DNA of 32,000 bases from Kineococcus radiotolerans SRS30216 = ATCC BAA-149 (GCF_000017305.1 NC_009664.2:4350001-4382000); one strand, 5' to 3'; numbered from the stretch's first letter, positions 8,784 to 31,420 are shown. Notes: generated from the sequence alone by a model not told the origin. Numbers and translations: made by a program.

Positions 8784-8805
8784 GCAGGATGACCGCACGT
8801 CACGC
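8784..8805 (+). repeat. junction repeat, copy R (variant GCAGGATGACCGCACGTCACGC)
   Basis: First copy of the family. It lies between the truncated integrase 5' end and the MBL gene stop. Confidence 0.6.
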
Positions 8806-8831
8806 AAGACTGTGACGGGTGCCGGTTGGGG

Positions 8832-9491
8832 TCAGCGGTGACCGCCGCGGCGCAGTCGTGCGGAGATGGTGTCGATGCGTTCACGGGTTTCCGCGGTGGT
8901 CGTCGTGGCGAAGCAGGGCCCGCCTTCGGTGGTGCCCCAGGGCACCAGGACGTCGAAGTCGAGGTCGCGGACGAGGGCCAGGCTGTCCAGGTAGTCCTGT
9001 CGCGATCCCGGATCCAGCAACACGGCCTTCCACTCTCCCTCTTCGATCCACAGGAAGTCCCCGGTGAACAGGAAGCGGTGCACGCCGCTGTCCCACAGGT
9101 AGCTGGTCGTGCCGGGTGTGTGCCCCGGTGTGGGGATGATCTCCAGGTCGTCGTCCAGCACCTGGCGGTGATCGAAGGTGGCGGTGATGCGCATCGAGCG
9201 GGCTGCCTCGGCGAGGTCACGTTCGTGCACGTGCACGGGCGCATCCACGGGCGGGTCGCCGTACATCGCCTCGTGCGCATGGTTGAGCAACAGCCGCGAC
9301 ACCCCGCCGAGGTCGGCGATCGCCTCGGCGGCGGCGGTGATGCCGGGGGAGTTGTAGACCACGACGTTGCCTGCAGGTCGCTGCAGCACGAAGGAACGCA
9401 GCAGGACGTTCTGCTGGTAGGGCAGGCGAGCGGTGCCGGTGGCCCGCAGGGTCTCGACGGGCATGTCCAGGGGCGGGGTGGAGGAAGGCAT
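8832..9491 (-). CDS. MBL-fold metallo-hydrolase
   Basis: LLLNHAHEAMYGD and IIPTPGHTPGTTSYL are metallo-beta-lactamase-fold motifs. The ATG is at 9491. It lies 32 nt downstream of tetR, so the two are probably an operon. Confidence 0.8.
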   Translation of the reverse strand: MPSSTPPLDMPVETLRATGTARLPYQQNVLLRSFVLQRPAGNVVVYNSPGITAAAEAIADLGGVSRLLLNHAHEAMYGDPPVDAPVHVHERDLAEAARSMRITATFDHRQVLDDDLEIIPTPGHTPGTTSYLWDSGVHRFLFTGDFLWIEEGEWKAVLLDPGSRQDYLDSLALVRDLDFDVLVPWGTTEGGPCFATTTTAETRERIDTISARLRRGGHR

Positions 9492-9523
9492 GCTGGTGCA
9501 CCGGTTCCGGTCGAAGGAGACGC

Positions 9524-10177
9524 TCAGACGGAACGGCCGAGCGCCGCGGTGGTCGCGTCGAAGGAGAGCGGTCGTGGGGTCAACGCTTCGACATCGTGCG
9601 AGGGGCGGGTTCCGTCGATGAGGAGTTGGGCGTACCGACGCCACACGCGGGGGTCGTCGGAGCGGGTGACGTCAGCGACCTTCCCGACCATGAAGGCGAG
9701 CAGGCACACCTCGTGCGAACTCAAGCCAGGACGCAGCTGCCCGGCCCGGACGGCGCGGTCGATCAGGTCGTCGACGCCGGGAAGCAGTCGGCGCTGCAGT
9801 TCGGCGGTGAAGTGGCTGCGGCCGGTGGGTGAGGTGAGGACCACCTCCAGGCCCCGGTCACCGGCGCGTTGCTCCATGAGCGCCAGCAGGAAGTCGCGAA
9901 AGGCCTCCCCGGGGCCGCGCTGGGCGGGCGCAGCCTCGACGAGCCGCACCAGGGCCTCGACCTTGTCCTCCACCAGGGCGTCGAGGAGGGCGGTCTTGTC
10001 GGGGAACTTGCGGTAGACGGTGGCCACCCCGACGCCGGCGGCGCGGGCGACGTCGTTGAGCGTCGCGTCCGCGCCCACGTCGGCGAACACCCTCGTCGCG
10101 GCGTCCAGGACGCGCCGGCGGTTCCGCTCGGCGTCGGCGCGGGGGGCGCGGGTGGAGGTGGAACTGCTCGGGGCCAT
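9524..10177 (-). CDS. TetR/AcrR family transcriptional regulator
   Basis: N-terminal HTH RRVLDAATRVFADVGADATLNDVARAAGVGVATVYRKFPDK. Confidence 0.92.
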   Translation of the reverse strand: MAPSSSTSTRAPRADAERNRRRVLDAATRVFADVGADATLNDVARAAGVGVATVYRKFPDKTALLDALVEDKVEALVRLVEAAPAQRGPGEAFRDFLLALMEQRAGDRGLEVVLTSPTGRSHFTAELQRRLLPGVDDLIDRAVRAGQLRPGLSSHEVCLLAFMVGKVADVTRSDDPRVWRRYAQLLIDGTRPSHDVEALTPRPLSFDATTAALGRSV

Positions 10178-10194
10178 GCCGTGACCCTACCACT

Positions 10195-10223
10195 AAACGG
10201 AACTGATCAATCCGTATCCGTTT
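10195..10223. promoter_or_regulatory. AT-rich nested palindrome, candidate TetR operator
   Basis: AAACGGAactgatcaatccgtaTCCGTTT has inner arms ACGGA/TCCGT and a central TGATCA. It lies 18 bp upstream of the tetR start. Confidence 0.5.
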
Positions 10224-10227
10224 CAGG

Positions 10228-10450
10228 GGCACCGTGAGGTCTGCGCGGTTCATCGGCACGGTTCGTGTTCGCCCGCTCATCGACGACGTGCGGGTGATCC
10301 TCATGCGTGGATTGCGCTCGCTCGCCGACAGGACCGTGAGGTCGCCAGCCGTCGACGTCCGCCCGGATCGCGGGATGACCGTGACGTCGCACACCGCGGG
10401 ATGACCGGGTCCTGACGCGTTGCCGCTGAGGCTGGATGACGGTTCTGCTC
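10228..10450 (+). repeat. junction repeat cluster A (five full or partial direct copies)
   Basis: The copies are ACCGTGAGGTC (10231-10241), caGGACCGTGAGGTCGCC (10329-10346), GCCCGGATCGCGGGATGACCGTGACGTCGC (10361-10390), CGCGGGATGACCGGGTCCTGACGCG (10395-10419) and GCTGGATGACGGTTCTGCTC (10431-10450). Confidence 0.9.
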
Positions 10451-10686
10451 TCCTGCCCTGGCTGGAACCGTGGTGAGGAGCCGGTGATGGTGGACGGTGC
10501 GGCGCCCGTCGGTGATGTCGGCGGGGCCGACCAGCTGGATCGTTCCGGCGGTGGAGTCGAGGGCCTGAAACTCACGTCGAAGCGGCTGCTTCGCGGTGCC
10601 CGGCGCACTTGTGGTCATCGGTGCGACGGCGAGGTCGTCAGCCGTTCACGACCGCACCCGAGTGAGGCGTGGCCCCACCACCCGCG

Positions 10687-11220
10687 TCAGTCCAGCGTGA
10701 GCCAGAGGGCATCGACCGCGGCCGCCACGTCTTCCTCCGCGGGAGGTCTGGTGAGCACGAAGGCTGAGATGCTGAGCTGCTCGGAGGTCCGCCAGCACAG
10801 CACCTTGCCGCTCAGCGGGGTTCCCGGGGTGTCCACGTCCTCGTCAGCTCCTCGCAGGACGACGTTGCGGGTGCAGCGCGTGCCGCCGATCGAGCGGCCG
10901 CTGTCGCCGAGCAGGTGCAGGTCGACCTTGCCGGTCATGTCGGTCCTCGTCGCGACGACGTTGAGCATCGTGGTACCGGGTGCACCGTAGCTGGTGAGCG
11001 CCGTGGGAGCGCCACCGAGACTCTCCGAGATGCTCTGCAGGAGGGAGGCATCGTTGTGGGGAGAGGTGTTCAGGCCCATGAAGGTCGGCGGCAGGTTCAC
11101 CGTGCGGGTACCGGAGGGTCCAGACGAGACGGTGAGATAGCCGGCGACCGCGATCGTCGCGAGGACGATGGGCATCGCGACGAGGGCGCGTCGGCTCACA
11201 CGGATGATCATCTGCTGCAC
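10687..11220 (-). CDS. hypothetical secreted / membrane-anchored protein
   Basis: 177 aa with an N-terminal signal-anchor (RRALVAMPIVLATIAVAGYL). No family was recognised. Confidence 0.6.
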   Translation of the reverse strand: MQQMIIRVSRRALVAMPIVLATIAVAGYLTVSSGPSGTRTVNLPPTFMGLNTSPHNDASLLQSISESLGGAPTALTSYGAPGTTMLNVVATRTDMTGKVDLHLLGDSGRSIGGTRCTRNVVLRGADEDVDTPGTPLSGKVLCWRTSEQLSISAFVLTRPPAEEDVAAAVDALWLTLD

Positions 11221-11497
11221 CTCCTGCCGGGCGCTGCGTCCAGGAAGTGCGCGTGCGCTCTGCCCATCTCGGCAGCGAGGCCCACCAGCTGTAGCCCAGG
11301 GTTGCTTGTGCTGGTGCGGGTCGAAGCGGCGGCCGACGATGGGCAGGCGGCGGCCGGCGTTCTCCAGGTCGTGCCGCCGCGGCCAGGATCCTCAGGAGCA
11401 CTGTCACGAAGAACGCACCTGCACCGATCGGTATGTCCTCTCCTCCTGGGGTCCTCATGGCAGTCGTGTTGCGTGCTGCTGCTGTAGGCGGTGCGCA

Positions 11498-11521
11498 CTG
11501 CGGGATGACCGTGAGGTCGGC
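11498..11521 (+). repeat. junction repeat, copy B
   Basis: CTGCGGGATGACCGTGAGGTCGGC; exact 12-mer core at 11500-11511. Confidence 0.9.
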
Positions 11522-11554
11522 AGACGTGTGCAGGAAGCTCGCCGCAGTGTCCGG

Positions 11555-12372
11555 TCAGCGCAGCGGGACCGGGCGGGTCAGGTCGTTGTCGTCCACGACG
11601 TGGGTGGCCTGCTGCTGCGGTGCGGCGTCGTCCAGGTACAGCTGCTGACCTTCGACGTAGCGGCGGTTGGAGGCGTCTGCTGGGGCGGGTGAACCGGAGC
11701 CGTCGCGGGCGACGCAGCGTTGCAAGGTGGTGGCCCGCTCGACGTCCAGCCACAGCGACCACGTCCAGTACCCGCGCAGCTCGGGGCGGTGCAGGAAGAT
11801 CCCGTCGACGATGAGGACGGTGCCGGGCGCGGCCTGCTGCTGCTCGGCGACGTCAGGGGTGTCGGTGCGGGCGTCGAAGACGCGGGTGCGGTACTGGCCG
11901 TGGCCGCCGGGGGCGAAGGGGTCGAGCAGGTGCTCCTGGAGGGCAGCGAGGTCGTAGGAGTCGCGGTAGAAACCTTCGGGGTCGCGGGAACCACGGGCGT
12001 GGCGCAGGGCGCGAGGGTGGTGGAAGCCGTCGATGGAGGCGTGGATCACGGGGCGGCCTCGGGTGCGCAGGGCGGTGGTGAGCTCATCGGCGAGGACGCT
12101 CTTGTCGGCTCCGTGCGGTTACCGGCTACGAGCACCGCCCGGGCGAAGTCGGCCGGGACGCGGCCGTGGTCGTGAGCTTGCCGGCCCTCGGCGCTGATGA
12201 GGTGGAAGGCGTCGTGGCTGTACGCCCACGCCGCCTTCTCCTCGACGTCGAGGACGATGCAGTCGTGGATGTCCGGTGAGGAAGTCGTCCCGTTCATCGG
12301 GTGGCGCCACTCGGGGTTCAGATCGGTGCCGAAGTGGACCGAGCCGTGCTTGCGGAGGTGTTCTTCACGCAC
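11555..12372 (-). pseudogene. uridine-kinase-like P-loop NTPase, frameshifted
   Basis: The C-terminal frame (11555..12049) reads IHASIDGFHHPRALRH...VLIVDGIFLHRPELRGYW. The N-terminal frame (12046..12372) has high GC3 and ends in AVLVAGN. Joining them needs a 1-nt shift near 12115-12123. The P-loop reads GADKS instead of GxGKS. Confidence 0.6.
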
Positions 12373-12384
12373 GGACTCCTCGCC

Positions 12385-12932
12385 CTAGCCGATCCGCACC
12401 TGGCCCTGGATGGTGCTGAGCACCCGGGTGACGCCTCGACCGACGTCGATGGTGCGCACCAGCCGGCCCGACTCGTCTCCCACGGCGTGCTCGCGCTGAG
12501 CTGACCATCGCGGTCGTCGTGGCTGAGGTGCGTCGCCCTTTCGCTGGTCTTCCCCCATAAGGCCAGCGCCTCCCCGGCAGGGCCGGAGCCGACGGTCAGC
12601 GGGTCTTGATGATCGGGCGCGCCCTCGGGGCGTCGCAGGTCGGCGGGGTGGCGCACGGGCAGCGTGGGGTAGGTGAGCACCTCTTGCCGGCGCAGCGCCT
12701 GCTGCTCCTCCCACTCGTACCGGACGCTCCGGGGACGTTCTGGACGGTCTTGATGCCACAGCTCCGAACGCTGTTGGGCGTCCCGCTCCGGATCGCCCGA
12801 CGGCGTCCACCTCGGCTCGATCCGCAGCCTCCGCTCTGCAGCCCCTCGTCGTGATCGCTCCCGCTCCGCCAGTCTCCGCCGCTTGTGCTCGCCGAACCAC
12901 TGCCCCCACCGCTGCGGGTTCCAGTGCTTCAT
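12385..12932 (-). pseudogene. hypothetical gene with an apparent frame switch near 12500
   Basis: The frame starting MKHWNPQRWGQWFGEHK has good GC3 down to about 12500. A different frame then carries high GC3 to a TAG at 12385 (…AVGDESGRLVRTIDVGRGVTRVLSTIQGQVRIG). The start is uncertain. Confidence 0.35.
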
Positions 12933-13008
12933 CCCCTCCTGCCACGTGTCCCGCACCCCGCCGTCCTGGCCCGCTCGGCCGGAGCGCGGCCGCGCAATCA
13001 CCGTCATG

Positions 13009-13070
13009 GCCGCGAGATCGCCCGCGCGCGCGATCGCGCCCGGATCGCGGGATGAGCGTGCGTGTCGAGG
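13009..13070 (+). repeat. junction repeat, copy C (bipartite)
   Basis: L box GCCGCGAGATCGCCC (13009-13023), then GCCCGGATCGCGGGATGAGCGTGCGTGTCGAGG (13037-13070). Box spacing is 45 bp. Confidence 0.8.
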
Positions 13071-13115
13071 TATCGATGCGGTACGGGCCGCTCGCTGTCC
13101 TGGCAGGCTGCCGAC

Positions 13116-13697: not shown

Positions 13698-13790
13698 CGG
13701 TTGCCCGAGTCGTGTCGCGTCGTAGCCGGGGACACACCTGTGTGCCGCCCGCCGGTTGACGTGTCGTGCAGTCGTTGGCCGCGCACGATC

Positions 13791-13816
13791 TGCGGGATGA
13801 CCGCGCGGTGGGCTCG
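13791..13816 (+). repeat. junction repeat, copy D (ATGACCGCGCGGTGG subfamily)
   Basis: TGCGGGATGACCGCGCGGTGGGCTCG; exact core at 13792-13803. Confidence 0.9.
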
Positions 13817-14580: not shown

Positions 14581-14589
14581 GCTGGTTGG

Positions 14590-14641
14590 CAGGACCGCAG
14601 GTCGATGACGTCCTTCGCGGCGGCGTGACCGTGAGGTCGCC
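14590..14641 (+). repeat. junction repeat, copy E (two direct boxes)
   Basis: caGGACCGCAGGTCGATGACGTCC followed by GGCGTGACCGTGAGGTCGCC. It lies 10 bp upstream of the DUF4287 start. Confidence 0.75.
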
Positions 14642-15417: not shown

Positions 15418-15484
15418 CCACGACCGCGAGGTCCTGGGCCCGTCCTGCTCGCGCGCTCATCGCGGGATGACCGGCAGGTCCGCC
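15418..15484 (+). repeat. junction repeat, copy F (bipartite)
   Basis: cacGACCGCGAGGTCCTGG, then CGCGGGATGACCGGCAGGTCCGCC. Exact core at 15462-15473. Box spacing is 47 bp. Confidence 0.9.
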
Positions 15485-16703: not shown

Positions 16704-16842
16704 GCGGTCAGCATGGTCAGTGAAGAGCGGGGCCGACGCCCTCGCTCCTGATCTTCACTGGGTCTGCCGGTGGAGGACACAGGCAGCTCGACGGGGCGAG
16801 CAGTTGCGCAGCACCAGCATGCTCAGTCTGAGACCGCGCCCA

Positions 16843-16866
16843 ACGCGGGATGACCGTGCGTTCCGC
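16843..16866 (+). repeat. junction repeat, copy G
   Basis: ACGCGGGATGACCGTGCGTTCCGC; exact core at 16845-16856. Confidence 0.9.
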
Positions 16867-17846: not shown

Positions 17847-17882
17847 GGTCAGCACGCTATGTGGGCCGCGCCCTTGCGCTCA

Positions 17883-17907
17883 AGGCGGGATGACGGTGAA
17901 GTCGGAC
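17883..17907 (+). repeat. junction repeat, copy H (variant)
   Basis: AGGCGGGATGACGGTGAAGTCGGAC. Confidence 0.8.
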
Positions 17908-19610: not shown

Positions 19611-19677
19611 CGCCAGGACCGTGACGTCGCCCGCCTCAGTCGATACAGCCCGGCCCGCTGGATGACTGTGCGGGGTC
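19611..19677 (+). repeat. junction repeat, copy I (bipartite)
   Basis: cgcCAGGACCGTGACGTCGCCCGCC, then GCCCGGCCCGCTGGATGACTGTGCGGGGTC. Box spacing is 47 bp. Confidence 0.85.
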
Positions 19678-20460: not shown

Positions 20461-20535
20461 CGCGACCAGGCTGCCGCGGGCATCACCGTCTGACCCGTTC
20501 GGCGTGCTGGCCGCGCCGCATCGACCATCCGGAAC

Positions 20536-20592
20536 TCGAGATGACCGTGACGTCGCCGCCGTCCAGCGCCCGCCCGGACCGCGGGATGTTCC
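20536..20592 (+). repeat. junction repeat, copy J (bipartite)
   Basis: TCGAGATGACCGTGACGTCGCC, then GCCCGGACCGCGGGATGTTCC. Box spacing is 45 bp. Confidence 0.85.
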
Positions 20593-20603: not shown

Positions 20604-22391
20604 TCACGGCCAGGGCACCTCGGCGAAGGCGGGGTTAACGGCCAAGGCGCGCAGCTGTTCGGTGCTGGTGAGGGGGGAGTCGAAGGAGTTCCCGGTTGCC
20701 AGCTGGGCTTTCGTGGTGGCGTCCAGCCTGGTGTCGGCGCTGACGACGCGTCCGTCGGGGTGGATGACGCTGACGGTGGTGTGCCAGCCCTGCAGCTGAC
20801 CGCCGGGGACTTGATCTTCTCGCACGAGACGGGTGTCGAAGGTGCGGGTGGTGACCAGCCGAGCACCGCCAGGTAGTTGCTCGTCGGTGCATTGCGCCTG
20901 GGGTTGGCAGGTGGTGCGTTCTGAGCCGGGGGTCTCGTCGGCCAGGTGCCCGATCTGCACGGTGAGGGTGGCCTGGGGGGTGCTGCGGGGGTCTTGGTGA
21001 GTCATCCACCAGCCGATTCGTTGCCCGGTGTCGCCGTTGGTCATCGTGCCCACCGCGTAGTAGCGGACCAGGTCCGGGTCGATGCTGAGCAGGGCGTCAC
21101 GGAAGGCGGCGGTGGCGAGGAGCTGCGGGTCGGCGGTGCGGGTGGTGGCGGACGTGGTGAGGGAGGTGGCGGGCGAGCTGGCTGGTGCCGGGTCGACAGG
21201 GTTGAGCTCAGCGGCGACGGCGTGCGCGTGCTGAAGCATCTGACGGTAGGCAGCCAGCTCACCGGCGTGTTCCTCGGCCAGCGGCGCCCAGTGCCGGACC
21301 AGGGCCTGCGCGAAGGCCGATCCCAGGGCGCTGGTGTCCTTGCAGTCACGGTCGGCGCTCGCCAGCGCCGCCTCGGCGGTGGTGAAGGTGTCCAGATCCG
21401 CCTCGGTGGCGCGGGTGCCGTCGGGTTGGTCGGTCAGCAGGTCACGACGCAAGGTCTGCACCTGCACGGGCAGGTCGGCTGGGGTGGCGACCTGGTGGCC
21501 GCGGGTGCCCATGCACTGCGACCACTCCTCCAGCGGGACCCGCAGGGCGCTGTCGCCGGCGACGTCCTCGAGCAGCTGTTCGGGCAGGCCCCGCACCGCG
21601 ACGTAGGTGCGGGTGTAGGTCTCCGCGTCGATGCCGTACAGCTGCTCGACCCCTTGGCCCGCGCAGCCGCTGGTGGTCACGGTCAGGCTGCCGTTGTCCT
21701 CCACGGGCAGGGTCAGCTCCCGCGCCGGGGTTCCGGTCAGGGTTTGGTAGTAGCCGTCGGGTACGCCGTCGATGAAGTCGCCGAGCTGGCCGGAGCCGGG
21801 GTCGGTGAGGACGGCACGGATGGAGCTGGCCACGCCGTAGGTGCTGGCGTGGGTGCTCCACGCCGACAGGTCATCGAGGTCGCGCCCACGGCGGGCCGCT
21901 TCCCCGACACGGTCGCCGGTGTCGACGGCGACGGGGCTGCGCTGGATGGTGACCCCTTGATCGGTCAGGCATCGGTCGATGAGGAGTTGCTCGCTCACGC
22001 CCAGGTCGAGTCCGTCGCGGGTGGCGATGGGCAGCTGGGCGAGGACGTCGTCGACGGTGGCGGCGGCGCGTTGGCCGTCGCGGACCTGGTCTGCGGCGGG
22101 GACGGTGCGCACCTGCTCGCTGTTCCACGGCTGCTGCCAGCTCAGTCCCGCCGCGGCGAGGGCGATGAGGGCGAGGGGGGTGGTGACGGCGGCGCGGCGC
22201 TGCCGGCGTCGGCGCCGGCCCCCGCGCAGAGCCGCAGCAGCGATGCCGGCGGGGGCGTGCAGGCCGCGGCCGGCCGCGTCCAGGCCTGAGCGCAGACGCC
22301 GTGCGGTCGGGTCGTCAGCACCGATGGCCTCGCCGGGGTCCTCGCCCAGGTCGCGGGGGTCGTGGGGGTCGTGGGGGTCGTGGTGGTTCAT
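20604..22391 (-). CDS. single-pass membrane protein with large extracytoplasmic domain; putative anti-sigma factor partner
   Basis: 595 aa. The start overlaps the sigma stop (ATGA). The N-terminus contains (HDP)3. A Arg-rich stretch precedes the TM segment TTPLALIALAAAGLSW. The C-terminal domain is large and uncharacterised. Confidence 0.7.
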   Translation of the reverse strand: MNHHDPHDPHDPRDLGEDPGEAIGADDPTARRLRSGLDAAGRGLHAPAGIAAAALRGGRRRRRQRRAAVTTPLALIALAAAGLSWQQPWNSEQVRTVPAADQVRDGQRAAATVDDVLAQLPIATRDGLDLGVSEQLLIDRCLTDQGVTIQRSPVAVDTGDRVGEAARRGRDLDDLSAWSTHASTYGVASSIRAVLTDPGSGQLGDFIDGVPDGYYQTLTGTPARELTLPVEDNGSLTVTTSGCAGQGVEQLYGIDAETYTRTYVAVRGLPEQLLEDVAGDSALRVPLEEWSQCMGTRGHQVATPADLPVQVQTLRRDLLTDQPDGTRATEADLDTFTTAEAALASADRDCKDTSALGSAFAQALVRHWAPLAEEHAGELAAYRQMLQHAHAVAAELNPVDPAPASSPATSLTTSATTRTADPQLLATAAFRDALLSIDPDLVRYYAVGTMTNGDTGQRIGWWMTHQDPRSTPQATLTVQIGHLADETPGSERTTCQPQAQCTDEQLPGGARLVTTRTFDTRLVREDQVPGGQLQGWHTTVSVIHPDGRVVSADTRLDATTKAQLATGNSFDSPLTSTEQLRALAVNPAFAEVPWP

Positions 22392-23200
22392 CGGGTGCGC
22401 TCCTCGTGCGAGGGAACCGGGTGCGTGCCGGGAACGGCAAGGTCAGGTGGCGTCGCGGCAGATGGCGTCACGTCAGGGGCCGCCGCGGCTGCTGTCACTG
22501 ATGGTGGTGCTGTCGCGGCGGACGAACGGGTCCGCGCTCCCTGGGCGGCTCCGGCACGGGGCGGGTCAACGCGGGGCGGCTCGGAGCCGGGTGGGTCGGC
22601 GCGGGAGGTGTCCAGCAGTTGTCGCAGTCGGCTCAAGCCGCGGGAAGCCTGGGTCTTGACCGTGCCGGTGGAGCAGTTCAGCGCATCGGCGATCTGGGCT
22701 TCGGTCCAGTCCTCGTAGTAGCGCAGCACCAGCACCGCGCGTTGGCGCGGGGAGAGCTGTCGCAGCGCGGTGACGGCCTCGTCCTGCTCGGCGTAGCGTT
22801 CCGCGGTGTCGTGGCTGATGTCGTGGCTGGTGCGGCGGTTGGAGCCGGGGGCTGCGATGTCGTGGCCGCTGCCTTGCTCAGGCCAGAGACCGTCGAGGGT
22901 CACTTCGCGGGGGCGGCGCCCCCGCCGGCGCCAGCGGTCGGTGACGGCTCGGACCATGACGGTGCGGGCGTAGGCGGCGGGTTCCTGCACCCGGCGCCAG
23001 TGCAGGTAGGTGCGCTCCAGGGTGTCCTGCAGGAGATCCTCGGCCAGGTGGTGATCGCCGGTGAGGAAGACGGCGGTGCGCATCAGCTGGTCGGCGTGGG
23101 CGAGGGCCCAGTCCTCGAAGTCGCGATCCCCTCGCGGGGTGGGCTGTGCCCGTGAGGTGGGGTCAGGGCCCTGCTGGGAGTCCTGCCCGAGCTTCTGCAC
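22388..23200 (-). CDS. ECF (sigma-70 family, SigE-like) RNA polymerase sigma factor with Ala/Pro-rich C-terminal extension
   Basis: Region 2 is LAEDLLQDTLERTYLHWRRV. Region 4 is LSPRQRAVLVLRYYEDWTEAQIADALNCSTGTVKTQASRGLSRLRQLL. About 70 further residues have lower GC3. Confidence 0.88.
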   Translation of the reverse strand: MQKLGQDSQQGPDPTSRAQPTPRGDRDFEDWALAHADQLMRTAVFLTGDHHLAEDLLQDTLERTYLHWRRVQEPAAYARTVMVRAVTDRWRRRGRRPREVTLDGLWPEQGSGHDIAAPGSNRRTSHDISHDTAERYAEQDEAVTALRQLSPRQRAVLVLRYYEDWTEAQIADALNCSTGTVKTQASRGLSRLRQLLDTSRADPPGSEPPRVDPPRAGAAQGARTRSSAATAPPSVTAAAAAPDVTPSAATPPDLAVPGTHPVPSHEERTR

Positions 23201-23370: not shown

Positions 23371-23403
23371 CCGCCCGGACCGCGGGATGACCGTGGAGTC
23401 GGC
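23371..23403 (+). repeat. junction repeat, copy K
   Basis: CCGCCCGGACCGCGGGATGACCGTGGAGTCGGC; exact core at 23382-23393. Confidence 0.9.
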
Positions 23404-24188: not shown

Positions 24189-24290
24189 GTTGTCCCCTCG
24201 CCGGTGATCGCGTCGCTGCGGGGACGCATCAGCAGTCTCGCTGCTGTCACAGCCCGGTGTCTCATCGGAGCGGCGGCGATCGCGTCCTGT

Positions 24291-24314
24291 CTGCGGGATG
24301 ACCGTGCGTCTGTC
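24291..24314 (+). repeat. junction repeat, copy L
   Basis: CTGCGGGATGACCGTGCGTCTGTC; exact core at 24293-24304. Confidence 0.9.
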
Positions 24315-24833: not shown

Positions 24834-24874
24834 GGCCAGTGTCCACCCGTCCCGATGAAGGGCTGATCGCGCGG

Positions 24875-24900
24875 ACGGCGGGATGACCGGGAGGTTGCCC
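24875..24900 (+). repeat. junction repeat, copy M
   Basis: ACGGCGGGATGACCGGGAGGTTGCCC; exact core at 24878-24889. It lies between convergent gene ends. Confidence 0.9.
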
Positions 24901-24945
24901 GACCCTCGGGCCGGTCGGGGGCGGGCGGCCCACGCCGGTTGCGCG

Positions 24946-25944: not shown

Positions 25945-25982
25945 CGTTCCTCCTGACGTAGTGGCCACTCGGTGACCGCTTC

Positions 25983-26009: not shown

Positions 26010-27560
26010 ATCTCGCCGACCCACGACGCATCCACTCGGGAGACGGTCACCGCCCCGCCGCCCCTGCGCGTCGTCGTCATCGGAGGGGGGATCGGCGGGC
26101 TCGCGCTCGCCGCCGGGCTGCGCCGGAGGGGCTTCGACGTCGTCGTCCACGACCGCGACCTCGACCCGGCCGCCACTGGCGGGTACCACATCACCCTCGA
26201 CACCCCCGCGCAGAACGCGCTGCGGGCGCTCCTGGAGCCTTCCCTGTTCGCCAAGCTGCTCGCCTCGGCCTCCGCGGTGCGCCGTCGACCCCCCGACGTC
26301 TGGTTCGACTGGCGAGGCCGCCTCCTCGGCGAGCTGGAGGTCAAAGGGCTGGACCCCGACAGCATCGACATCGACCGCATCAGCTTGCGCCTGCTCCTGG
26401 CCGAGGCCGTCGGCGGCGACCTCGTCCTGGGCAGCACCTGCACCGCCGTCCAGCGCGATCCCGGTCCAGGCGGGCGGGTCCGTGCGAGCTTCGCCGACGG
26501 CAGCACCGCCCACGGCGACCTGCTGGTCGGTGCCGACGGACCGCACTCCCTCGTCGTGCGCCACCTGGCCGGGCACCTGACGAGCCGCCCGGCCGGTCTC
26601 ACCGGAATCTCCGGGCGGACCTCGGTGGCTGATCTCGACCCGGCCGAAGCCGCGCGCCTCGGGCCGCGTTCGAGCTTGACCGTCGGACCCCGCGGCACCG
26701 CCCTCTACACCGGCTACCTCGACCCGGACGGCTTCGCGGTTCTGGACGCCGCTCACGCGCGAGCAGCCATCACCACCGGCCCCACCTACATCTGGGGGGC
26801 GATGTTCCCCGACTCCACCGCACCGGAGGGCCTGCGTGAGCAGCGAGGCAGCCAGCTGCTCCAGACGACCATCGAGGCTCTGCGCGCTGCCGGCTGGGGC
26901 GAGCCCCCCTTGCAAGTCATCGCCCGCACGAGCGTCGAGTCCATGGCCGCCTACCGCTTCAACGTCGGACCCGAGCACGCACGCGACATGGCGCCCTGGC
27001 CGGCCGGTGCCATCACCGCTCTCGGCGACGCCGTCCATGCCACTCCACCGACAGCGGGCAAGGGCGCGGGCACGGCCATCATCGACGCCCACCGGTTGGT
27101 CGAGGAACTGACAACGGTCCGGGCAGGCACCCAGACGTTGCATACCGCCGTCAGCACCTTCGAAGCCGACATGCGCCACCGCGGTAGCGCCGTCACCGCC
27201 TTGTCGATGACCACCGTCAACCGCATCCTCGCCAGCAGCACTCCCGTCGGCTCCGCCATCACCCGCGCCTCACTACCGCTCATGGCCTGGTCCGCGGGGC
27301 TGAAGCGGAAACTCGCCCACGGATCGCCGAGGGCCGACCGAGGCCGGGGCCGACCCCAGTCACCCGTGGTGGCACCTGCTGACCGACCCACTCCACCTGT
27401 GCGGGGTGCTCAGCCAGCCAGGGGTGGGTCGCGCACGCGGCGGCGACGCAGCTCTCGAACGCCGCTCGGGCCACTTCCACCGCCTCGCCCAGTCGCACGC
27501 CGAACCGCCCTCCGGCCACCAGTCGATCGGGCACGGTGCTGGCCCAGTCTCCGGCGCTGA
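26001..27560 (+). CDS. FAD-dependent monooxygenase (FAD_binding_3 family); 3' tail probably non-native
   Basis: VVVIGGGIGGLALAAGLRRRGFDVVVHDRD is the GxGxxG motif. GADGPHSLVR-like and ALGDAVHATPPTAGKGAGTAIIDA motifs are present. After about 27310 GC3 drops and the frame runs antisense through a peptidase fragment. Confidence 0.8.
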   Translation: MDTISPTHDASTRETVTAPPPLRVVVIGGGIGGLALAAGLRRRGFDVVVHDRDLDPAATGGYHITLDTPAQNALRALLEPSLFAKLLASASAVRRRPPDVWFDWRGRLLGELEVKGLDPDSIDIDRISLRLLLAEAVGGDLVLGSTCTAVQRDPGPGGRVRASFADGSTAHGDLLVGADGPHSLVVRHLAGHLTSRPAGLTGISGRTSVADLDPAEAARLGPRSSLTVGPRGTALYTGYLDPDGFAVLDAAHARAAITTGPTYIWGAMFPDSTAPEGLREQRGSQLLQTTIEALRAAGWGEPPLQVIARTSVESMAAYRFNVGPEHARDMAPWPAGAITALGDAVHATPPTAGKGAGTAIIDAHRLVEELTTVRAGTQTLHTAVSTFEADMRHRGSAVTALSMTTVNRILASSTPVGSAITRASLPLMAWSAGLKRKLAHGSPRADRGRGRPQSPVVAPADRPTPPVRGAQPARGGSRTRRRRSSRTPLGPLPPPRPVARRTALRPPVDRARCWPSLRR

Positions 27561-27645
27561 TGCCGAGGTGGCGGTTGGCGGCGTGGGCGGCGAGTCCGGT
27601 GAGGGTGAGGCGGAAGGTCAACGCGCGGGCGTGGGCGGTCGTCAC
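27280..27645 (-). pseudogene. fragment of an M20 (ArgE/DapE-like) peptidase/deacylase
   Basis: LTFRLTLTGLAAHAANRHLGIS followed directly by AGDWASTVPDRLVAGGRFGVRLGEAVEVARAAFESCVAAACATHPWLAEHPAQVEW. These are middle-domain motifs with an internal deletion. Both termini are missing. Confidence 0.55.
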
Positions 27646-27776
27646 CGCACCGAGAGGCTGTGCCGGACCTGTCCGAGCTCTCGTCAGACGGTTGCCGCAG
27701 ACCCGGCCCCTGGAGGTGGTGCCGGTCCCCGCGAGCCTCGGGGAGCAGGAAGATGTAGCTCGATCGACATCGTGGC

Positions 27777-29030
27777 ATGGCCGATCGACGCGTCCTGACC
27801 CTCTGCGCCGCTGTGACCTTCCTGCTGACCGGCTGCACGAGCACGTCGAGCCCCGCCCCCTCCGATGACCGCGCCGCCACGGCCGGCGCCTCCGCGTCCG
27901 GATTCAGTTCCTCGATCACCGTCACCGCTACCCCCGTGCAGCCGTTGCCGCCGCAGGTGCGTACCGCGGTCGACGCCACGGTGGCGGCCGGCGCGGTCGG
28001 CGCGGTCCTGCACGTGCGCGACGGGGACCGGACCTGGGCCGGTAGCGCGGGCACCCTCGCCCCCAGTGCGAGCACGGACGCGGGTGTGGACGCCGGTGGA
28101 GGAACATCGGCGGTGGACGCGCCCGCGCGGGTGGCGAGCACCACGAAGTCGATGGTGGCCACCGTCGTGGTGCAACTCGCCGAGGAAGGGGAGTTCGGTC
28201 TCGACGACCCGGTGGACTCGGTGCTGCCTGGTGTCCTGCCCGCCGAACGTGGCGTCACCGTGCGTCAGCTGCTGAACCACACCAGCGGGCTGCCCTCGGC
28301 GCCGGTGTTCGACACCTCTTCCGCTCAGCGCCTCCTCGACTCCGTGCGGCGCAGCTGGACCCCGCAGGAGCGGGTCGCCGCCGCGCTGGCCCTGCCGTGG
28401 ACGAACGAGGCGGGGGCGGCGTTCTCCTACTCCAACGAGAACTACGCCGTCCTGGGGATGCTCATCGAGCACGTCACCGGCGATGACCTCGCGACGGTGC
28501 TGCAGCAGCGGGTCTTCACCCCGGCTGGGATGCAGGACACCAGCTACCCCTCCGACACCTCGATGCCCACCGACGCGCTGCGCGGCTACCAGTTCCCCGA
28601 TACCGGCCCGGGACCGGGTGGCTTGGACACCACTGAGCAGGAGCCCTCGGCGTGGGATGCGGGGGCGGCCGTCATCTCCACCGCCCCGGACCTCAACGCC
28701 TTCTTCCGCGCCCTCTTCAGCGGCGAACTGGTCTCCTCCGAGGGGGTGGCTCAGATGCAGCAGATCGGTGTCGAGGGCTACGGCCTGGGCCTGCTCGCCG
28801 GCGGGGACCCCTGCGGGACGTTCCCAGTGCCGGCGGGGCAGACGCCGGAGCTGGTGTTCGGTCAGCGCGGCAACGGGGTCGGCTACCGCGCCCTGGCCCT
28901 GTCCTCTCCCGATGGGCAGCGCCAGGCGGCGCTGGTGTGGACGGGGACGGCGGCGGATCCCGCGCGTGACCCGTTGACCGAACCCACCAGTGCAGCAGTC
29001 ACCGCGGGACTCGCCGCCACCTGCGGTTGA
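27777..29030 (+). CDS. serine hydrolase, beta-lactamase / DD-peptidase fold, lipoprotein
   Basis: Lipobox LLTGC. The SxxK motif is ASTTKSM and the YxN motif is YSNENY. Confidence 0.88.
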   Translation: MADRRVLTLCAAVTFLLTGCTSTSSPAPSDDRAATAGASASGFSSSITVTATPVQPLPPQVRTAVDATVAAGAVGAVLHVRDGDRTWAGSAGTLAPSASTDAGVDAGGGTSAVDAPARVASTTKSMVATVVVQLAEEGEFGLDDPVDSVLPGVLPAERGVTVRQLLNHTSGLPSAPVFDTSSAQRLLDSVRRSWTPQERVAAALALPWTNEAGAAFSYSNENYAVLGMLIEHVTGDDLATVLQQRVFTPAGMQDTSYPSDTSMPTDALRGYQFPDTGPGPGGLDTTEQEPSAWDAGAAVISTAPDLNAFFRALFSGELVSSEGVAQMQQIGVEGYGLGLLAGGDPCGTFPVPAGQTPELVFGQRGNGVGYRALALSSPDGQRQAALVWTGTAADPARDPLTEPTSAAVTAGLAATCG

Positions 29031-29215
29031 AGTGACGTCGCTGGGACTCCACTCGATCTTCCGGCGCGGTTCATCGCGGGCGTTCACAGAACCTGATCCA
29101 GTTGCTGCACCGCGGACCTCCGCCTCGCCCCGGGAGCGTCTCGAGCCTCGACCGCGACGCGCCCACCTGCACACACCGGGGTCAGACGCACGACGACGTC
29201 GTTAGAGTCGGGACC

Positions 29216-29725
29216 GTGTACCGCAAGACTGCGTCTGTCGTCTTCGCCGTCACCACCGTGCTCGCGGCCGCGGCGGTGGTGATCGCTGCGGGGCTGCTGC
29301 CGGAGCGGGTGCCGACGCACTTCGGCGCCGGCGGCGACGCCGACGACTGGAGCTCGCGCACCGAGGCGGTCACGTTCCTGGCTCTGCTCACCCTGGGCAT
29401 GGCGGGCTTGTTCGCGGCCCTGGCGTGGTGGATGCCGCGGATGTCGATGGAGTGGGTGAACGTCCCCGACAAGCAGCGCTGGATCGAGGCCGGTCGGGAG
29501 GGGGAGCTGCGTCGCCGGCTGCGTGAGGACGCGCTGCTCTTCGGGGCGAGCACCAACGTGCTGGTGCTCTCGACGACGATTGCGATGGTCCAGGCTGCGT
29601 CGTCGGGGACCGACGCTCTGCCCGTGTGGTGGTTCGTGGTGTTCGCGGGGTGGCTCCTGCTGACCACGGTGCACGCGGTGTTCATCCACGGGGCGCGCTA
29701 CCGCTGGGACCGCGCGGGCGGCTGA
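29216..29725 (+). CDS. DUF1648 domain membrane protein
   Basis: LLPERVPTHFGAGGDADDWSSR is the DUF1648 signature. Four TM segments. GTG start at 29216. Confidence 0.7.
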   Translation: MYRKTASVVFAVTTVLAAAAVVIAAGLLPERVPTHFGAGGDADDWSSRTEAVTFLALLTLGMAGLFAALAWWMPRMSMEWVNVPDKQRWIEAGREGELRRRLREDALLFGASTNVLVLSTTIAMVQAASSGTDALPVWWFVVFAGWLLLTTVHAVFIHGARYRWDRAGG

Positions 29726-29770
29726 CTCCGGCCAGGTGCGAATCATGAACGTCCACGGAACGTCCACGCT

Positions 29771-29795
29771 CGCGGGATGACCGCGCGGTGGTTGG
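29771..29795 (+). repeat. junction repeat, copy N (ATGACCGCGCGGTGG subfamily)
   Basis: CGCGGGATGACCGCGCGGTGGTTGG; exact core at 29772-29783. It lies between convergent gene ends and is preceded by an 11-bp tandem duplication at 29747-29768. Confidence 0.9.
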
Positions 29796-29837
29796 AGGCC
29801 ACCCGCGCTGCCGGCGGCTCCTGCCGTGCAACGAACG

Positions 29838-30191
29838 CTACCTGCCGGTCGAGACGGTGATGAGGAAGTCGGTGCTGTCGGACGGGGCAACCTCACCGGT
29901 CCCAGGGTCCTGCAGGTGCCCGGCATCCTCAGGGTCGTCCCCGCACAAGGCGGCGCCGCTCGGCACACGGAGGACGGGGCGGGTCGCTCCTGCTTGCTCG
30001 ACGACGTGGATGTCGAGCACCCGCCCCCGGATCCGCTCGCTGGGGCCGAGGTCGTGGTGGCTCTCGATGAGCCGTACTCGGCCGCCGGGCTGCAGGTAGC
30101 GGATGCAGGTGAAGGTGACGAAGTCGCCGCGTTCGATGGCGGGTCCGCAGCACTCGTGTTCCCAGCCGCCCACTTCGACGATGACCGTCAT
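29838..30191 (-). CDS. small hypothetical protein with W-x-x-E-CCG motif (resembles DUF6578 from memory)
   Basis: MTVIVEVGGWEHECCGPAIERGDFVTFTC; 117 aa. Confidence 0.6.
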   Translation of the reverse strand: MTVIVEVGGWEHECCGPAIERGDFVTFTCIRYLQPGGRVRLIESHHDLGPSERIRGRVLDIHVVEQAGATRPVLRVPSGAALCGDDPEDAGHLQDPGTGEVAPSDSTDFLITVSTGR

Positions 30192-30247
30192 GAGGAGAAC
30201 TTAGCCACTCGGGCGGCGTCAGCCTCACGCGAGAGGCACCCTAAGCG

Positions 30248-30334
30248 TCTCGATGACCGCGCGTCCTTCGACACGACCGCCGGATCGCAGCCGGCCATGG
30301 CCCAGCCCGGACGTGGGATGGCCGTGACGTCGGG
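30248..30334 (+). repeat. junction repeat, copies O (three boxes)
   Basis: The boxes are TCTCGATGACCGCGCGTCCTTCG (30248-30270), caCGACCGCCGGATCGCAGCC (30272-30292) and GCCCGGACGTGGGATGGCCGTGACGTCGGG (30305-30334). The last two are 45 bp apart. Confidence 0.75.
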
Positions 30335-30493
30335 TGGACGCCGCGGCGCACCGACGATGGTTGCACGGCTCGTCTCCTTCGCTGAGGAGTCTGACCGTGT
30401 TCGTCCCCCCGTCCTCCCTCCTCACCGGCGCCGCGCGCAGCCGTCATGACCGGCGCCAGCCGTGACAGCAGTTCGGCGGGCTTGAAGCCTTCC

Positions 30494-30525
30494 GCACGGA
30501 TCGCGCGATGACCGGAAGTCGCCCC
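30494..30525 (+). repeat. junction repeat, copy P
   Basis: GCACGGATCGCGCGATGACCGGAAGTCGCCCC. Confidence 0.8.
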
Positions 30526-30568
30526 GGCTGCCGCACTCTGGTGGTCACCAGCCCCTAGGGTCGCGGAC

Positions 30569-31373
30569 GTGGCAACCGGTGGCACCGACTCGACCACCCG
30601 TGACGGCCGAGCCTCCTCGACCGGCGGGCGATCGCTGTCGTGGCGCAGCACCGGCCCGACCGGCGCGCCGGTACTGCTGTGGCTGCACGGCAACACCGGC
30701 AGCGCCCGCACCGCCCCTGTCGTGGACTCCGTGCGCGTCCTCTCCTACGACCGCCCCGGCTTCGGCACTTCCATCCCGCACCCCGACCGGGACCTGCTCA
30801 GCGACGCCGTCGACGTGCAGGTGCTGCTGGAGCAGTTCGACGTCGCCCGGGTTCGGCTGCTGGCGTTCTCCGGTGGCGCGGCCGTAGCCTTCGCCGCCGC
30901 GGCCCATCTGGGCCCGGAGGTGGTGCCGCACGTGGGAATCGTGTCCGGCGCGACCTGGCCCACCGCCCCCGGTGGAGGCGTGGCAGGGCGCGGCGGAGGC
31001 GTTGCGCGCTGACCCCGCAGCGGCGGTGGACCGCCTGGGCGTCGAGGCGCCCCGCCTGGACCGGGAGGTGCTGGCCGATCCGTCGCTGCGGGCTGAACTG
31101 CTCGACGGGGTCGCCGACGCGCTCGCGGGCGGTACCGAGGGGTGGGTGCGGGACGCGCTGCTGGTCCGGAGCCCGTGGCCGGTGGCGCCGGCGCAGGTGG
31201 ACGTCCCGGTCACCTGGTGGCACGGGGAGCACGACGTCGCTGTTCCGCTGGTCGCGGCTGAGGCCGCGGTGTCGGCGTTGCCGCACGGTGTGCTGCACCG
31301 GCTGCCGGAGGCGGGGCACATCGGGTGGATGCACGATCGTGACGCGATCGTGCAGGCCCTGGTGGGCGCCTGA
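30569..31373 (+). pseudogene. alpha/beta hydrolase, frameshifted at a C5 run (about 30966-30970)
   Basis: The first frame (30569..31012) reads VLLWLHGNTGS…YDRPGFGTS…LLAFSGGAAVAF. The second frame (30972..31373) reads …WWHGEHDVAVP…LPEAGHIGW. Together they make one complete fold. Confidence 0.75.
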
Positions 31374-31396
31374 CGGGTTTCCTCGAAACGCGGGCA

Positions 31397-31420
31397 ACGC
31401 GGGATGACCGCGCGCTTCGT
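31397..31420 (+). repeat. junction repeat, copy Q
   Basis: AACGCGGGATGACCGCGCGCTTCG; exact core at 31399-31410. It is preceded by a duplicated ACGCGGG. Confidence 0.9.

What the first reader, a model, noticed from the sequence alone, without database searches (positions are those of the whole stretch)
8784..31420. Strand-polarised intergenic repeat family (core GCGGGATGACCG) that cuts 23 kb into cassette-like modules
The 12-mer GCGGGATGACCG occurs exactly 11 times, with starts at 10370, 10396, 11500, 13792, 15462, 16845, 23382, 24293, 24878, 29772 and 31399. At least 10 further copies have 1-4 mismatches, with starts at 8784, 13047, 14622, 17346, 17885, 19657, 20536, 20581, 30248, 30313 and 30503. 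The extended consensus is about GCCCGGAyCGCGGGATGACCGTGAsGTCGCC. Every copy is on the + strand, and I found no convincing reverse-complement copy. Every copy lies outside a confident CDS. Copies occur between convergent gene ends (24875, 29771), between divergent starts (13037, 16843, 19611, 30249-30525) and between tandem genes. That placement argues against a simple promoter, terminator or RBS-linked signal. A rough estimate assuming about 36 percent each of G and C gives far fewer than one chance occurrence of this 12-mer in 64 kb of two-strand sequence. The copies partition 8.8-31.4 kb into at least 17 modules of 0.45-2.8 kb, plus one of 4.9 kb. Each module holds one functional unit: TetR+MBL; secreted protein; kinase-like pseudogene; histidine phosphatase; DUF4287; VOC; esterase; DUF4279; a hypothetical protein; CoA-transferase; lipoprotein; sigma/anti-sigma; lipoprotein; and so on. 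None of the 8 intergenic gaps left of 7.3 kb carries the core. Direct, same-orientation sites flanking unrelated single-function units are what serial site-specific insertion or cassette accretion would leave behind. I know of no described element with this sequence, and classical integrons are reported to be absent from Actinobacteria. The recombination-site interpretation is inference.
Basis: partly seen in the sequence, partly recalled or inferred. Interest (0 to 1): 0.9.

Follow-up and report, generated by a model that had tools for sequence, protein, structure and literature searches.

The report
Cassette-bounding recombination sites in Kineococcus
A 30-base DNA site, always pointing the same way, separates small groups of accessory genes in Kineococcus radiotolerans and its relatives. 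Gene modules have been swapped exactly at this site, so it looks like a gene-cassette system resembling an integron in a bacterial group thought to have none.

Summary
GCGGGATGACCG occurs 11 times, all on the + strand (0.03 expected). A matrix trained only on other species finds 17 sites at 10.4-31.4 kb, none on the - strand and none credible left of 8.7 kb.

The window is Kineococcus radiotolerans. The site is about 30 nt (CgCgCggAcC-GCGGGATGACCG-TGAgGTCG). It is not confined to this island. It occurs in at least 12 Kineococcus species and in metagenomes, in dense arrays on many contigs.

- 182 of 185 sites share the orientation of their locus.
- About 95% of 126 sites are intergenic, with no relation to flanking gene direction.
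- Spacing is 26-46 nt or at least 158 nt, with a median of 746 nt.

Homologous modules sit in different contexts, and homology breaks inside the 12-nt core. The variable arms travel with the adjacent module. Every array is G- and T-rich on the site strand.

The sites have no hairpin, no covariation and no integron integrase, and genes face either way. I read them as double-strand recombination sites bounding mobile cassettes. The recombinase is unidentified. A replication-polar repeat that merely seeds rearrangements is the main rival.

The parts
8784..31418 (+). Array of co-oriented sites that cuts the accessory region into modules. Inter-site distances here run from 26 nt to 4.9 kb.
   Evidence: GC skew is +0.079 and AT skew -0.100 on the + strand over the array.
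10360..10389 (+). Site (exact core at 10370), long form. A degenerate direct half-copy, cAGGACCGTGAGGTCGCC, lies at 10329-10346, about 45 nt upstream.
   Evidence: PWM score 39.1.
10386..10415 (+). Site (exact core at 10396), tandem to the previous one at 26 nt. A third, degenerate core lies at 10431.
   Evidence: PWM 21.3. The same 26-nt tandem occurs in L176, with a 27-nt one in L192.
11490..11519 (+). Site (exact core at 11500).
   Evidence: PWM 33.2.
13037..13066 (+). Site (core GCGGGATGAGCG at 13047), left border of the histidine phosphatase module.
   Evidence: PWM 20.1. It is conserved in a 98.8% identical relative, L258.
13782..13811 (+). Site (exact core at 13792), right border of the histidine phosphatase module.
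   Evidence: PWM 24.9. Homologues of the gene in K. endophyticus and Kineosporia succinea lie in site-free contexts.
14610..14639 (+). Site (core GCGGCGTGACCG at 14620).
   Evidence: PWM 19.0.
15452..15481 (+). Site (exact core at 15462), between the VOC and esterase modules.
   Evidence: PWM 30.1; Pfam.
16835..16864 (+). Site (exact core at 16845).
   Evidence: PWM 35.0.
17875..17904 (+). Site (core GCGGGATGACGG at 17885), beside the 3' end of the CoA-transferase gene, which is on the - strand.
   Evidence: PWM 31.7.
19647..19676 (+). Marginal site (core GCTGGATGACTG at 19657), with an upstream half-copy at 19615-19633.
   Evidence: PWM 11.2; half-copy GACCGTGACGTCGCC at 19617.
20526..20555 (+). 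Site (core TCGAGATGACCG at 20536). A truncated core, GCGGGATG, follows at 20581.
   Evidence: PWM 28.0.
23372..23401 (+). Site (exact core at 23382), between the ECF sigma/anti-sigma module and the next module.
   Evidence: PWM 37.0; Pfam.
24283..24312 (+). Site (exact core at 24293).
   Evidence: PWM 22.9.
24868..24897 (+). Site (exact core at 24878), left border of the 4.9-kb four-gene module (WYL regulator, FAD monooxygenase, beta-lactamase family, DUF1648).
   Evidence: PWM 35.3; Pfam.
29762..29791 (+). Site (exact core at 29772).
   Evidence: PWM 22.8.
30303..30332 (+). Site (core GTGGGATGGCCG at 30313).
   Evidence: PWM 17.3.
30493..30522 (+). Site (core GCGCGATGACCG at 30503).
   Evidence: PWM 18.9.
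31389..31418 (+). Site (exact core at 31399). The array may continue beyond the window.
   Evidence: PWM 25.0.
8300..8540 (-). Remnant of a tyrosine recombinase gene at the left edge of the array. It is 5'-truncated and frameshifted, and keeps only the C-terminal catalytic motif (HTCLQHLVNLGTDISLVQEL / HTNVQATIDSYVRV). Its relation to the array is unproven.
   Evidence: Six-frame translation. Pfam Phage_integrase E=2.9e-9, profile positions 132-171 of 172. NCBIfam Xer-like matches. No homologue in 27 other Kineococcus loci.

Best explanation
The repeat is a family of directional recombination sites, probably acting as double-stranded DNA. Each site is about 30 bp: a left arm CgCgCggAcC, an invariant 12-bp exchange core GCGGGATGACCG, and a right arm TGAgGTCG. 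The sites delimit small mobile gene modules (cassettes) in Kineococcus.

Proposed mechanism: a module that carries one complete site as a circle recombines with a resident site. This leaves the module flanked by two direct copies, so arrays grow by accretion and every site in an array points the same way whatever the direction of the genes. Exchange inside the core joins the left arm of one module to the right arm of the next.

Shown here:
- the sites, their polarity and their clustering;
- their genus-wide spread;
- homology breaks inside the core;
- inheritance of each arm with the adjacent module.

Inferred:
- the enzyme is a dedicated site-specific recombinase, most simply a tyrosine recombinase acting in trans;
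- a circular intermediate exists;
- the process is still active.
For: (1) Polarity. The window has 17 sites on the + strand and 0 on the - strand. Across 44 loci, 182 of 185 sites share their locus orientation, and 26 of 29 arrays with at least 3 sites are pure.

(2) Sites ignore genes. 120 of 126 are intergenic. Flanking gene strands (left, right) are (+,-) 28, (+,+) 28, (-,+) 24 and (-,-) 18.

(3) Module size. Spacing is bimodal: 26-46 nt, or 158 nt and more, with a median of 746 nt, roughly one small gene.

(4) Shuffling at the core.
- L180 2170-2532 matches L194 6060-6422 (88%, same genome), and L132 4007-4469 matches L189 528-69 (87%, different species). Both modules are bounded at both ends by sites, with unrelated outer flanks.
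- 12-13 pairs share only the left flank and 7 only the right flank. No pair shares both flanks, apart from identical re-sequenced loci.
- 27 of 76 homology endpoints lie in site blocks, against 2.2 expected.

(5) Arms travel with the neighbouring module. In pairs sharing only the left flank, left-arm identity is 0.76 (background 0.44) and right-arm identity is 0.48. In pairs sharing only the right flank, right-arm identity is 0.86 (background 0.53).

(6) Clustering in accessory DNA.
- There are no sites in the 8.7 kb to the left, in 20.6 kb of K. endophyticus, or in 20.6 kb of Kineosporia.
- Arrays are about 70% G+C, against 72.6% pooled and up to 77% in the DNA flanking them.
- Encoded families are typical of chromosomal integron cassettes: PIN, Phd/YefM, VapB, Fic/DOC, GNAT, AAC(3), MerR, TetR and DUFs.

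(7) Two head-to-head site pairs form a perfect palindrome, ATGACCG-CGACGTCG-CGGTCAT. That is the geometry of a tyrosine recombinase core site.
Against: - No recombinase is linked to the arrays. The window holds only a decayed tyrosine recombinase fragment with no relatives in the other loci. The genes at array borders are ordinary and differ from locus to locus.
- A Xer-like recombinase (L185, L237) and small serine recombinases (L304, L306) lie in or near arrays but are not recurrent.
- No presence/absence polymorphism was seen for this window. All public contigs of the strain are collinear with it at 98.8-100% identity.
- Tandem cores 26-46 nt apart are too short to have been circles.
- Exchange at 12-30-bp repeats could also come from general or illegitimate recombination.
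- The strand asymmetry of the arrays is not predicted by a purely double-strand mechanism.
Confidence: 0.55

Rival explanations
1. The repeat is a small selfish or host-recruited element, like REP or PATE elements. It inserts strand-specifically into single-stranded DNA at the replication fork, as elements moved by IS200/IS605-type or RAYT HUH transposases do. Local co-orientation and G/T richness would then both reflect the direction of replication. Module shuffling would be a by-product of ordinary recombination between the many short repeats.
For: - The G>C and T>A asymmetry on the site strand in 29 of 29 arrays is the signature of the strand that is exposed single-stranded during replication.
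- The element is short, intergenic and multi-copy across a genus.
- Tandem cores 26-46 nt apart fit repeated insertion or slippage better than cassette capture.
- No dedicated recombinase was found next to arrays.
Against: - The arms are inherited separately, each with its neighbouring module, which a unitary inserted element would not show.
- The sites have no hairpin or conserved secondary structure. Ten of 12 fold z-scores lie within ±1.1, the two stable folds are upstream hairpins unrelated to the site, and there is no covariation. HUH transposases need such a structure.
- No inverted pairs typical of REPINs were seen; 182 of 185 sites are co-oriented.
- One 190-kb contig carries arrays of opposite orientation 80 kb apart, and the skew flips with them (L194 and L192).
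- The skew is stronger inside arrays than in the flanking DNA (0.071 against 0.027 after cancelling the gene-strand effect).
- Sites are absent from about 50 kb of ordinary Kineococcus and Kineosporia DNA.
Confidence: 0.25
2. The site is a polar chromosome-organising or DNA-translocation signal. It would be read by a directional DNA motor or a repair enzyme, as with KOPS read by FtsK, Chi, or the 8-bp TraB recognition repeats of actinomycete conjugative plasmids. It would be enriched in the accessory arms of the linear chromosome.
For: - The sites show strict local polarity and an association with strand compositional asymmetry.
- In this window the left arm often reads GCCCGGA, which resembles the TraB motif GACCCGGA. 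That motif is recalled from memory and was not tested.
Against: - Known polar motifs are 5-8 nt and lie mostly inside genes. This site is 30 nt, 95% intergenic and tightly clustered at about one per gene.
- This reading does not explain why homology between loci breaks in the core, or why the arms follow the modules.
- Arrays of opposite polarity occur on one contig.
Confidence: 0.1
3. The site is a gene-expression signal: an ECF-type promoter (GGAAC-N16-GTC geometry), a terminator, or a 3'-UTR element.
For: - The arms can be read as GGAaC (-5 to -1) and GTC (+16 to +18) with a 16-nt spacer.
- An ECF sigma/anti-sigma pair sits in the array.
- Some modules are so tight that they have no room for a promoter of their own. 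In L180/L194 the start codon is 31 nt after the start of the core.
Against: - The downstream gene is on the same strand in 54 cases and on the opposite strand in 48. The upstream gene splits 64 to 52.
- The most conserved part is the would-be spacer, not the -35 and -10 boxes.
- There is no stable hairpin and no Rfam family.
- The ATG in the core does not open reading frames; the median is 26 codons.
Confidence: 0.04

Closest known systems
Sedentary chromosomal integrons and CALIN arrays (attC-bounded gene cassettes, for example the Vibrio cholerae VCR repeats)
   Same: Many co-oriented sites, each bounding one small accessory gene. The same cassettes are found in different contexts, with junctions at the site. 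The site is split at the junction, so that most of it lies at one end of the cassette and a short conserved piece starts the next. Content is rich in toxin-antitoxin pairs, acetyltransferases, small regulators and DUFs. Arrays have a fixed relation to strand asymmetry.
   Different: The site is conserved in sequence, not in structure. It has no R''/L''-L'/R' palindrome and no hairpin. There is no IntI integrase, attI or Pc next to the arrays. Genes face either way relative to the site. Many arrays occur per genome, among ordinary genes. The host phylum is one in which complete integrons were not found (PMC4889954).
Accretion of integrative elements at att sites, and cis-mobilisable elements (CIMEs) flanked by att sites but lacking an integrase
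   Same: Direct repeats of a short common core flank DNA segments that lack their own recombinase. Tandem accretion yields co-oriented sites.
   Different: Known cases involve a few elements of tens of kilobases at a tRNA or gene 3' end. Here there are up to 10 sites per 8 kb bounding single genes, at many loci.
pdif modules of Acinetobacter plasmids (XerC/XerD sites flanking single-function modules)
   Same: Short recombination sites flank small modules of unrelated function, and the modules recur in different contexts. The recombinase is encoded elsewhere.
   Different: pdif sites are 28-bp dif-like sites that alternate in orientation. Here all sites are direct, unrelated in sequence to dif, and chromosomal. 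No hit was found in 72,556 plasmids.
REP/BIME and PATE elements mobilised by HUH (RAYT, IS200/IS605) transposases
   Same: Short, intergenic, multi-copy and lineage-specific. An orientation linked to replication is known for IS200/IS605 derivatives.
   Different: No palindrome or hairpin, no inverted pairs, no associated HUH gene seen. The arms are inherited separately with the flanking DNA.

Membership tests
Integron (attC cassette array) | attC sites are imperfect palindromes (R''-L'' ... L'-R') that fold into a hairpin as single strands. They are conserved in structure rather than in sequence. | tested here: not met
   Folding 12 sites with 70 nt of left flank as DNA gave z-scores within ±1.1 for 10 of 12 and no shared fold. 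No covarying or complementary column pairs were found among 124 sites. The sequence itself is highly conserved. No Rfam family matched.
Integron (attC cassette array) | An integron integrase (IntI, with its extra domain) lies adjacent and divergent to the array, with attI and Pc. | tested here: not met
   The only recombinase in the window is a truncated fragment that scores 28.5 bits against a cut-off of 265 for integron integrase. No tyrosine recombinase motif was found in the 27 Kineococcus loci by regex. A later tblastn probe did find a Xer-like recombinase in two of them (L185, L237); it scores 48 bits against the cut-off of 265. Border genes are ordinary.
Integron (attC cassette array) | Cassettes are mostly co-oriented with the sites and are promoterless. 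| tested here: not met
   The downstream gene is on the site strand in 54 cases and on the other strand in 48.
Integron (attC cassette array) | Direct, co-oriented sites bound single-gene modules, and the modules recur in other contexts with junctions in the site. | tested here: met
REP/REPIN-RAYT or IS200/IS605-derived PATE | An imperfect palindrome forms a hairpin. Copies often lie in inverted pairs. An HUH transposase is cognate to the element. | tested here: not met
   No hairpin. 182 of 185 sites are co-oriented. No tblastn hit to an IS608 TnpA probe in 330 kb.
MITE | Terminal inverted repeats and a target-site duplication flank a unitary insert. | tested here: not met
   The conserved block from -10 to +19 has no terminal inverted repeats. 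The arms are inherited separately with the flanks.
CRISPR array | Identical repeats of 24-48 nt are separated regularly by 25-75-nt spacers. | tested here: not met
   Spacing is 336-4,894 nt for most intervals, with a median of 746 nt, and the intervals hold genes.
Polar chromosomal motifs (KOPS, Chi) | Short (5-8 nt) motifs are spread through genes and spacers genome-wide, with a skew set by the direction of replication. | tested here: inconclusive
   Length (30 nt), intergenic restriction (95%) and clustering do not fit. The link between orientation and strand asymmetry does fit. A whole-genome map was not obtainable.
pdif / Xer modules | A 28-bp site has XerC and XerD arms around a 6-bp spacer, and the sites alternate in orientation. 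| tested here: not met
   All sites are direct. The sequence does not resemble dif; that comparison was made from memory only.
MIRU-type intercistronic repeats | Orientation is fixed relative to transcription of the flanking genes, and the repeat overlaps stop and start codons. | tested here: not met
   There is no relation to gene direction, and the core ATG does not open reading frames.

The most novel reading that the evidence does not exclude
Kineococcus (Actinomycetota) carries a second, independently evolved gene-capture system that does the job of an integron with different parts. It uses a sequence-defined 30-bp site with a 12-bp exchange core instead of a folded attC, and an as yet unknown recombinase acting in trans. 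Arrays lie at many chromosomal loci, possibly concentrated in the skewed arms of the linear chromosome. Cassettes bring their own expression signals and can face either way. The uniform G/T excess on the site strand would then record a single-stranded stage of one defined strand during cassette movement.
Probability: 0.4. Interest if true: 0.9.

Novelty: new variant of a known kind. Interest (0 to 1): 0.8.

Why it matters
Integrons are the textbook system for stockpiling and shuffling single genes. Complete integrons were not found in Gram-positive bacteria (PMC4889954).

A cassette system in an actinobacterial genus, built on a different kind of site, would show that array-based gene capture evolved more than once. 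It would offer a simple 30-bp site and a new recombinase to look for. It would also explain how the accessory regions of these radiation-resistant bacteria are assembled, and perhaps the unexplained GC skew near the ends of the K. radiotolerans chromosome.

The claim is directly testable with public genomes and a two-plasmid recombination assay.

Tried and rejected
- **Known RNA or tRNA:** Rfam and tRNA scans found nothing.
- **Structured single-strand element:** rejected by mutual information and by folding.
- **Coding or leaderless start at the core ATG:** rejected.
- **Promoter or terminator:** rejected because gene orientation is random.
- **Strain polymorphism:** public contigs of the same strain are 100% identical to the window, so they give no information. 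A 98.8% identical relative is collinear.
- **Extending the window or locating it on the chromosome:** failed.
- **The recombinase fragment at 8.3-8.5 kb:** no homologue in other loci, and protein searches returned only itself.
- **Array border genes:** no recurrent neighbour.
- **Plasmids and viral contigs:** no site. The first viral scan returned only chance singletons.
- **Literature:** no description of this repeat or of actinobacterial cassette arrays was found.

Full report
**Observation**

The 12-mer GCGGGATGACCG occurs 11 times in the window, at exactly the coordinates given, always on the + strand. Shuffles give 0.03 expected. With up to two mismatches there are further copies, nearly all on the + strand.

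I built a position weight matrix from 81 sites of other species only, so it is independent of the window. It finds 17 sites scoring at least 14, all on the + strand and none on the - strand, where 0.1 is expected for both strands.
- 13047, 14620, 17885, 20536, 30313 and 30503 are supported;
- 19657 is marginal;
- 8784, 17346, 20581 and 30248 are not supported.

No credible site lies left of 8.7 kb.

There is no tRNA and no Rfam family.

**Source and spread**

A window protein is annotated as Kineococcus radiotolerans on a 4,761,183-bp contig, which is the linear chromosome (PMC2587704).

About 27 of the 120 stretches it returned are Kineococcus, from at least 12 species and many contigs. Every other genus gave a single chance hit.

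In Kineococcus blocks the core occurs up to 9-10 times per 8 kb. A metagenome scan added 16 more array-bearing contigs. Plasmid and viral collections hold none.

So the family is genus-wide and multi-locus, not a single island. It is nevertheless strongly clustered. There are no sites in the left 8.7 kb of the window, in 20.6 kb of K. endophyticus or in 20.6 kb of Kineosporia succinea. The matrix has almost no background: 3 extra hits in 710 kb of other high-GC DNA.

**Anatomy**

Information content is high from -10 to +19 relative to the start of the core, giving CgCgCggAcC | GCGGGATGACCG | TGAgGTCG. The 3' edge is sharp.
- About a fifth of sites carry a degenerate direct copy 45 nt upstream.
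- The invariant part is ATGACCG. Core variants GCGCC/GCGGC-ATGACCG exist.
- There is no covariation and no consistent single-strand fold; z-scores lie within ±1.1 for 10 of 12 sites.
- The ATG in the core does not start genes.
- Spacing is bimodal. Seven intervals are 26-46 nt, and the rest are 158-4,894 nt with a median of 746 nt, roughly one small gene.

**Relation to genes**

120 of 126 sites are intergenic. The four combinations of flanking gene strands are about equally frequent: 28, 28, 24 and 18. This excludes a promoter, terminator or UTR role as the organising principle.

**Polarity**

182 of 185 sites share the orientation of their locus, and 26 of 29 arrays with at least three sites are pure. 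Two of the three exceptions are head-to-head pairs that form a perfect palindrome, ATGACCG-CGACGTCG-CGGTCAT.

**Exchange at the core**

- In an all-against-all comparison, two modules are bounded at both ends by sites while their outer flanks are unrelated: L180 against L194 within one genome, and L132 against L189 between species.
- Across all site pairs, 12-13 share only the left flank and 7 only the right flank. None shares both flanks, except three loci that are identical re-sequenced copies.
- 27 of 76 internal homology endpoints fall in site blocks, which make up 1.95% of the DNA. The expectation is 2.2, and the maximum in 2,000 trials was 8.
- The variable arms follow the adjacent module. 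Left-arm identity is 0.76 in pairs sharing only the left flank, against a background of 0.44. Right-arm identity is 0.86 in pairs sharing only the right flank, against 0.53.

So the exchange point is inside the invariant 12 bp, and the site is not a unitary insert. One such module is a tight 98-codon gene that starts 31 nt after one core and ends 12 nt before the next.

The histidine phosphatase module of the window has homologues in K. endophyticus and Kineosporia that lie in site-free contexts. Similarity there is limited to the gene.

**Content**

Array-encoded families include PIN, Phd/YefM, VapB, Fic/DOC, GNAT, AAC(3), MerR, TetR, GrpB and many DUFs. The window adds VOC, esterases, a metallo-beta-lactamase fold and a beta-lactamase family protein. 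This is the kind of content seen in chromosomal integrons. That comparison rests on my own knowledge.

**Strand asymmetry (new, unexplained)**

Every array with at least three sites is G-rich on the site strand: 29 of 29, of which 26 are independent. Mean GC skew is about +0.07 and AT skew about -0.06.

The effect holds for genes on either strand (+0.031 and +0.111) and for spacers (+0.064). It is weaker outside arrays. One contig has arrays of opposite orientation 80 kb apart, and the skew flips with them.

The genome paper reports no skew at the chromosome centre but a remarkable skew near the ends. The window, at 71% G+C against the genome's 74.2% and with strong skew, may lie in such an arm. 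That is inference.

**The enzyme**

None is established.
- At the left edge of the window's array lies a truncated, frameshifted tyrosine recombinase C-terminus followed by two orphan ORFs. It has no relatives in the other loci or in the protein database.
- A Xer-like tyrosine recombinase sits inside arrays in two species, with homology limited to its coding sequence.
- Small serine recombinases sit near two metagenome arrays.
- Array borders are ordinary genes.

**Verdict**

The best reading is a family of directional recombination sites, probably double-stranded, that bound mobile single-gene modules. Co-orientation follows from insertion of circles at resident sites. I give this 0.55.

The main rival, at 0.25, is a replication-polar short repeat whose copies merely seed rearrangements. 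The strand asymmetry and the very short tandem intervals favour it. Against it are the split inheritance of the arms, the lack of any hairpin, the clustering, and arrays of opposite orientation on one contig.

The system works like an integron but fails the tests that define integron membership: site structure, IntI, and cassette orientation. Complete integrons were not found in Actinobacteria (PMC4889954), and I found no description of this repeat.

Noticed in passing
window 7302-8540 (- strand): Remnant of a tyrosine recombinase gene (8300-8540), 5'-truncated and frameshifted. Two orphan ORFs follow it: 7877-8266, with a CxxCxHF motif, and 7302-7880, with an HTH and a coiled coil. It looks like debris of a multi-gene tyrosine recombinase element and sits exactly at the left edge of the array.
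   Followed up: partly
window 30569-31373 (+ strand): An alpha/beta hydrolase is split into two overlapping ORFs (30569-31012 and 30972-31373), which suggests a frameshifted pseudogene inside one module.
   Followed up: partly
window 1-32000; arrays in 29 loci: Arrays are G- and T-rich on the site strand whatever the gene direction, and have lower G+C than the flanking DNA. The K. radiotolerans genome paper notes an unexplained strong GC skew near the chromosome ends.
   Followed up: partly
window 10370-10442; L176 4667/4693; L192 1346/1373; L206 116/151: Tandem cores only 26-35 nt apart recur in different species. They look like 'empty' modules too short to circularise.
   Followed up: partly
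L237 3587-3618; L186 120-150: Two head-to-head site pairs form a perfect palindrome, ATGACCGCGAC|GTCGCGGTCAT: 7-bp arms around an 8-bp centre. Ordinary sites keep only one arm and the centre.
   Followed up: partly
L185 952-1938 (-); L237 1874-2800 (+): A Xer-like tyrosine recombinase, 86% identical in DNA between two species, lies inside site arrays in both. Homology stops at the ends of the coding sequence. It is a candidate enzyme or simply another mobile gene.
   Followed up: partly
L306 3122-3685 (+); L304 4299-4838 (-): Small serine recombinase genes lie near site arrays on two metagenome contigs. The L304 copy appears broken.
   Followed up: no
window 14440, 19345, 27591, 31471: Independent public assemblies of the same strain all break at these coordinates. 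None of them is a site; the cause is unknown.
   Followed up: no
window 20604-23200 (- strand): An ECF sigma factor gene (22388-23200) overlaps by 4 nt a 595-residue ORF with no Pfam match, presumably its anti-sigma partner. The pair is carried as one module. The site arms themselves have a GGAAC-N16-GTC geometry like ECF promoters.
   Followed up: no
L259 11809-13269: A DUF222/HNH protein, of the kind encoded by mycobacterial 13E12 repeats, lies next to the site-free histidine phosphatase homologue in K. endophyticus.
   Followed up: no
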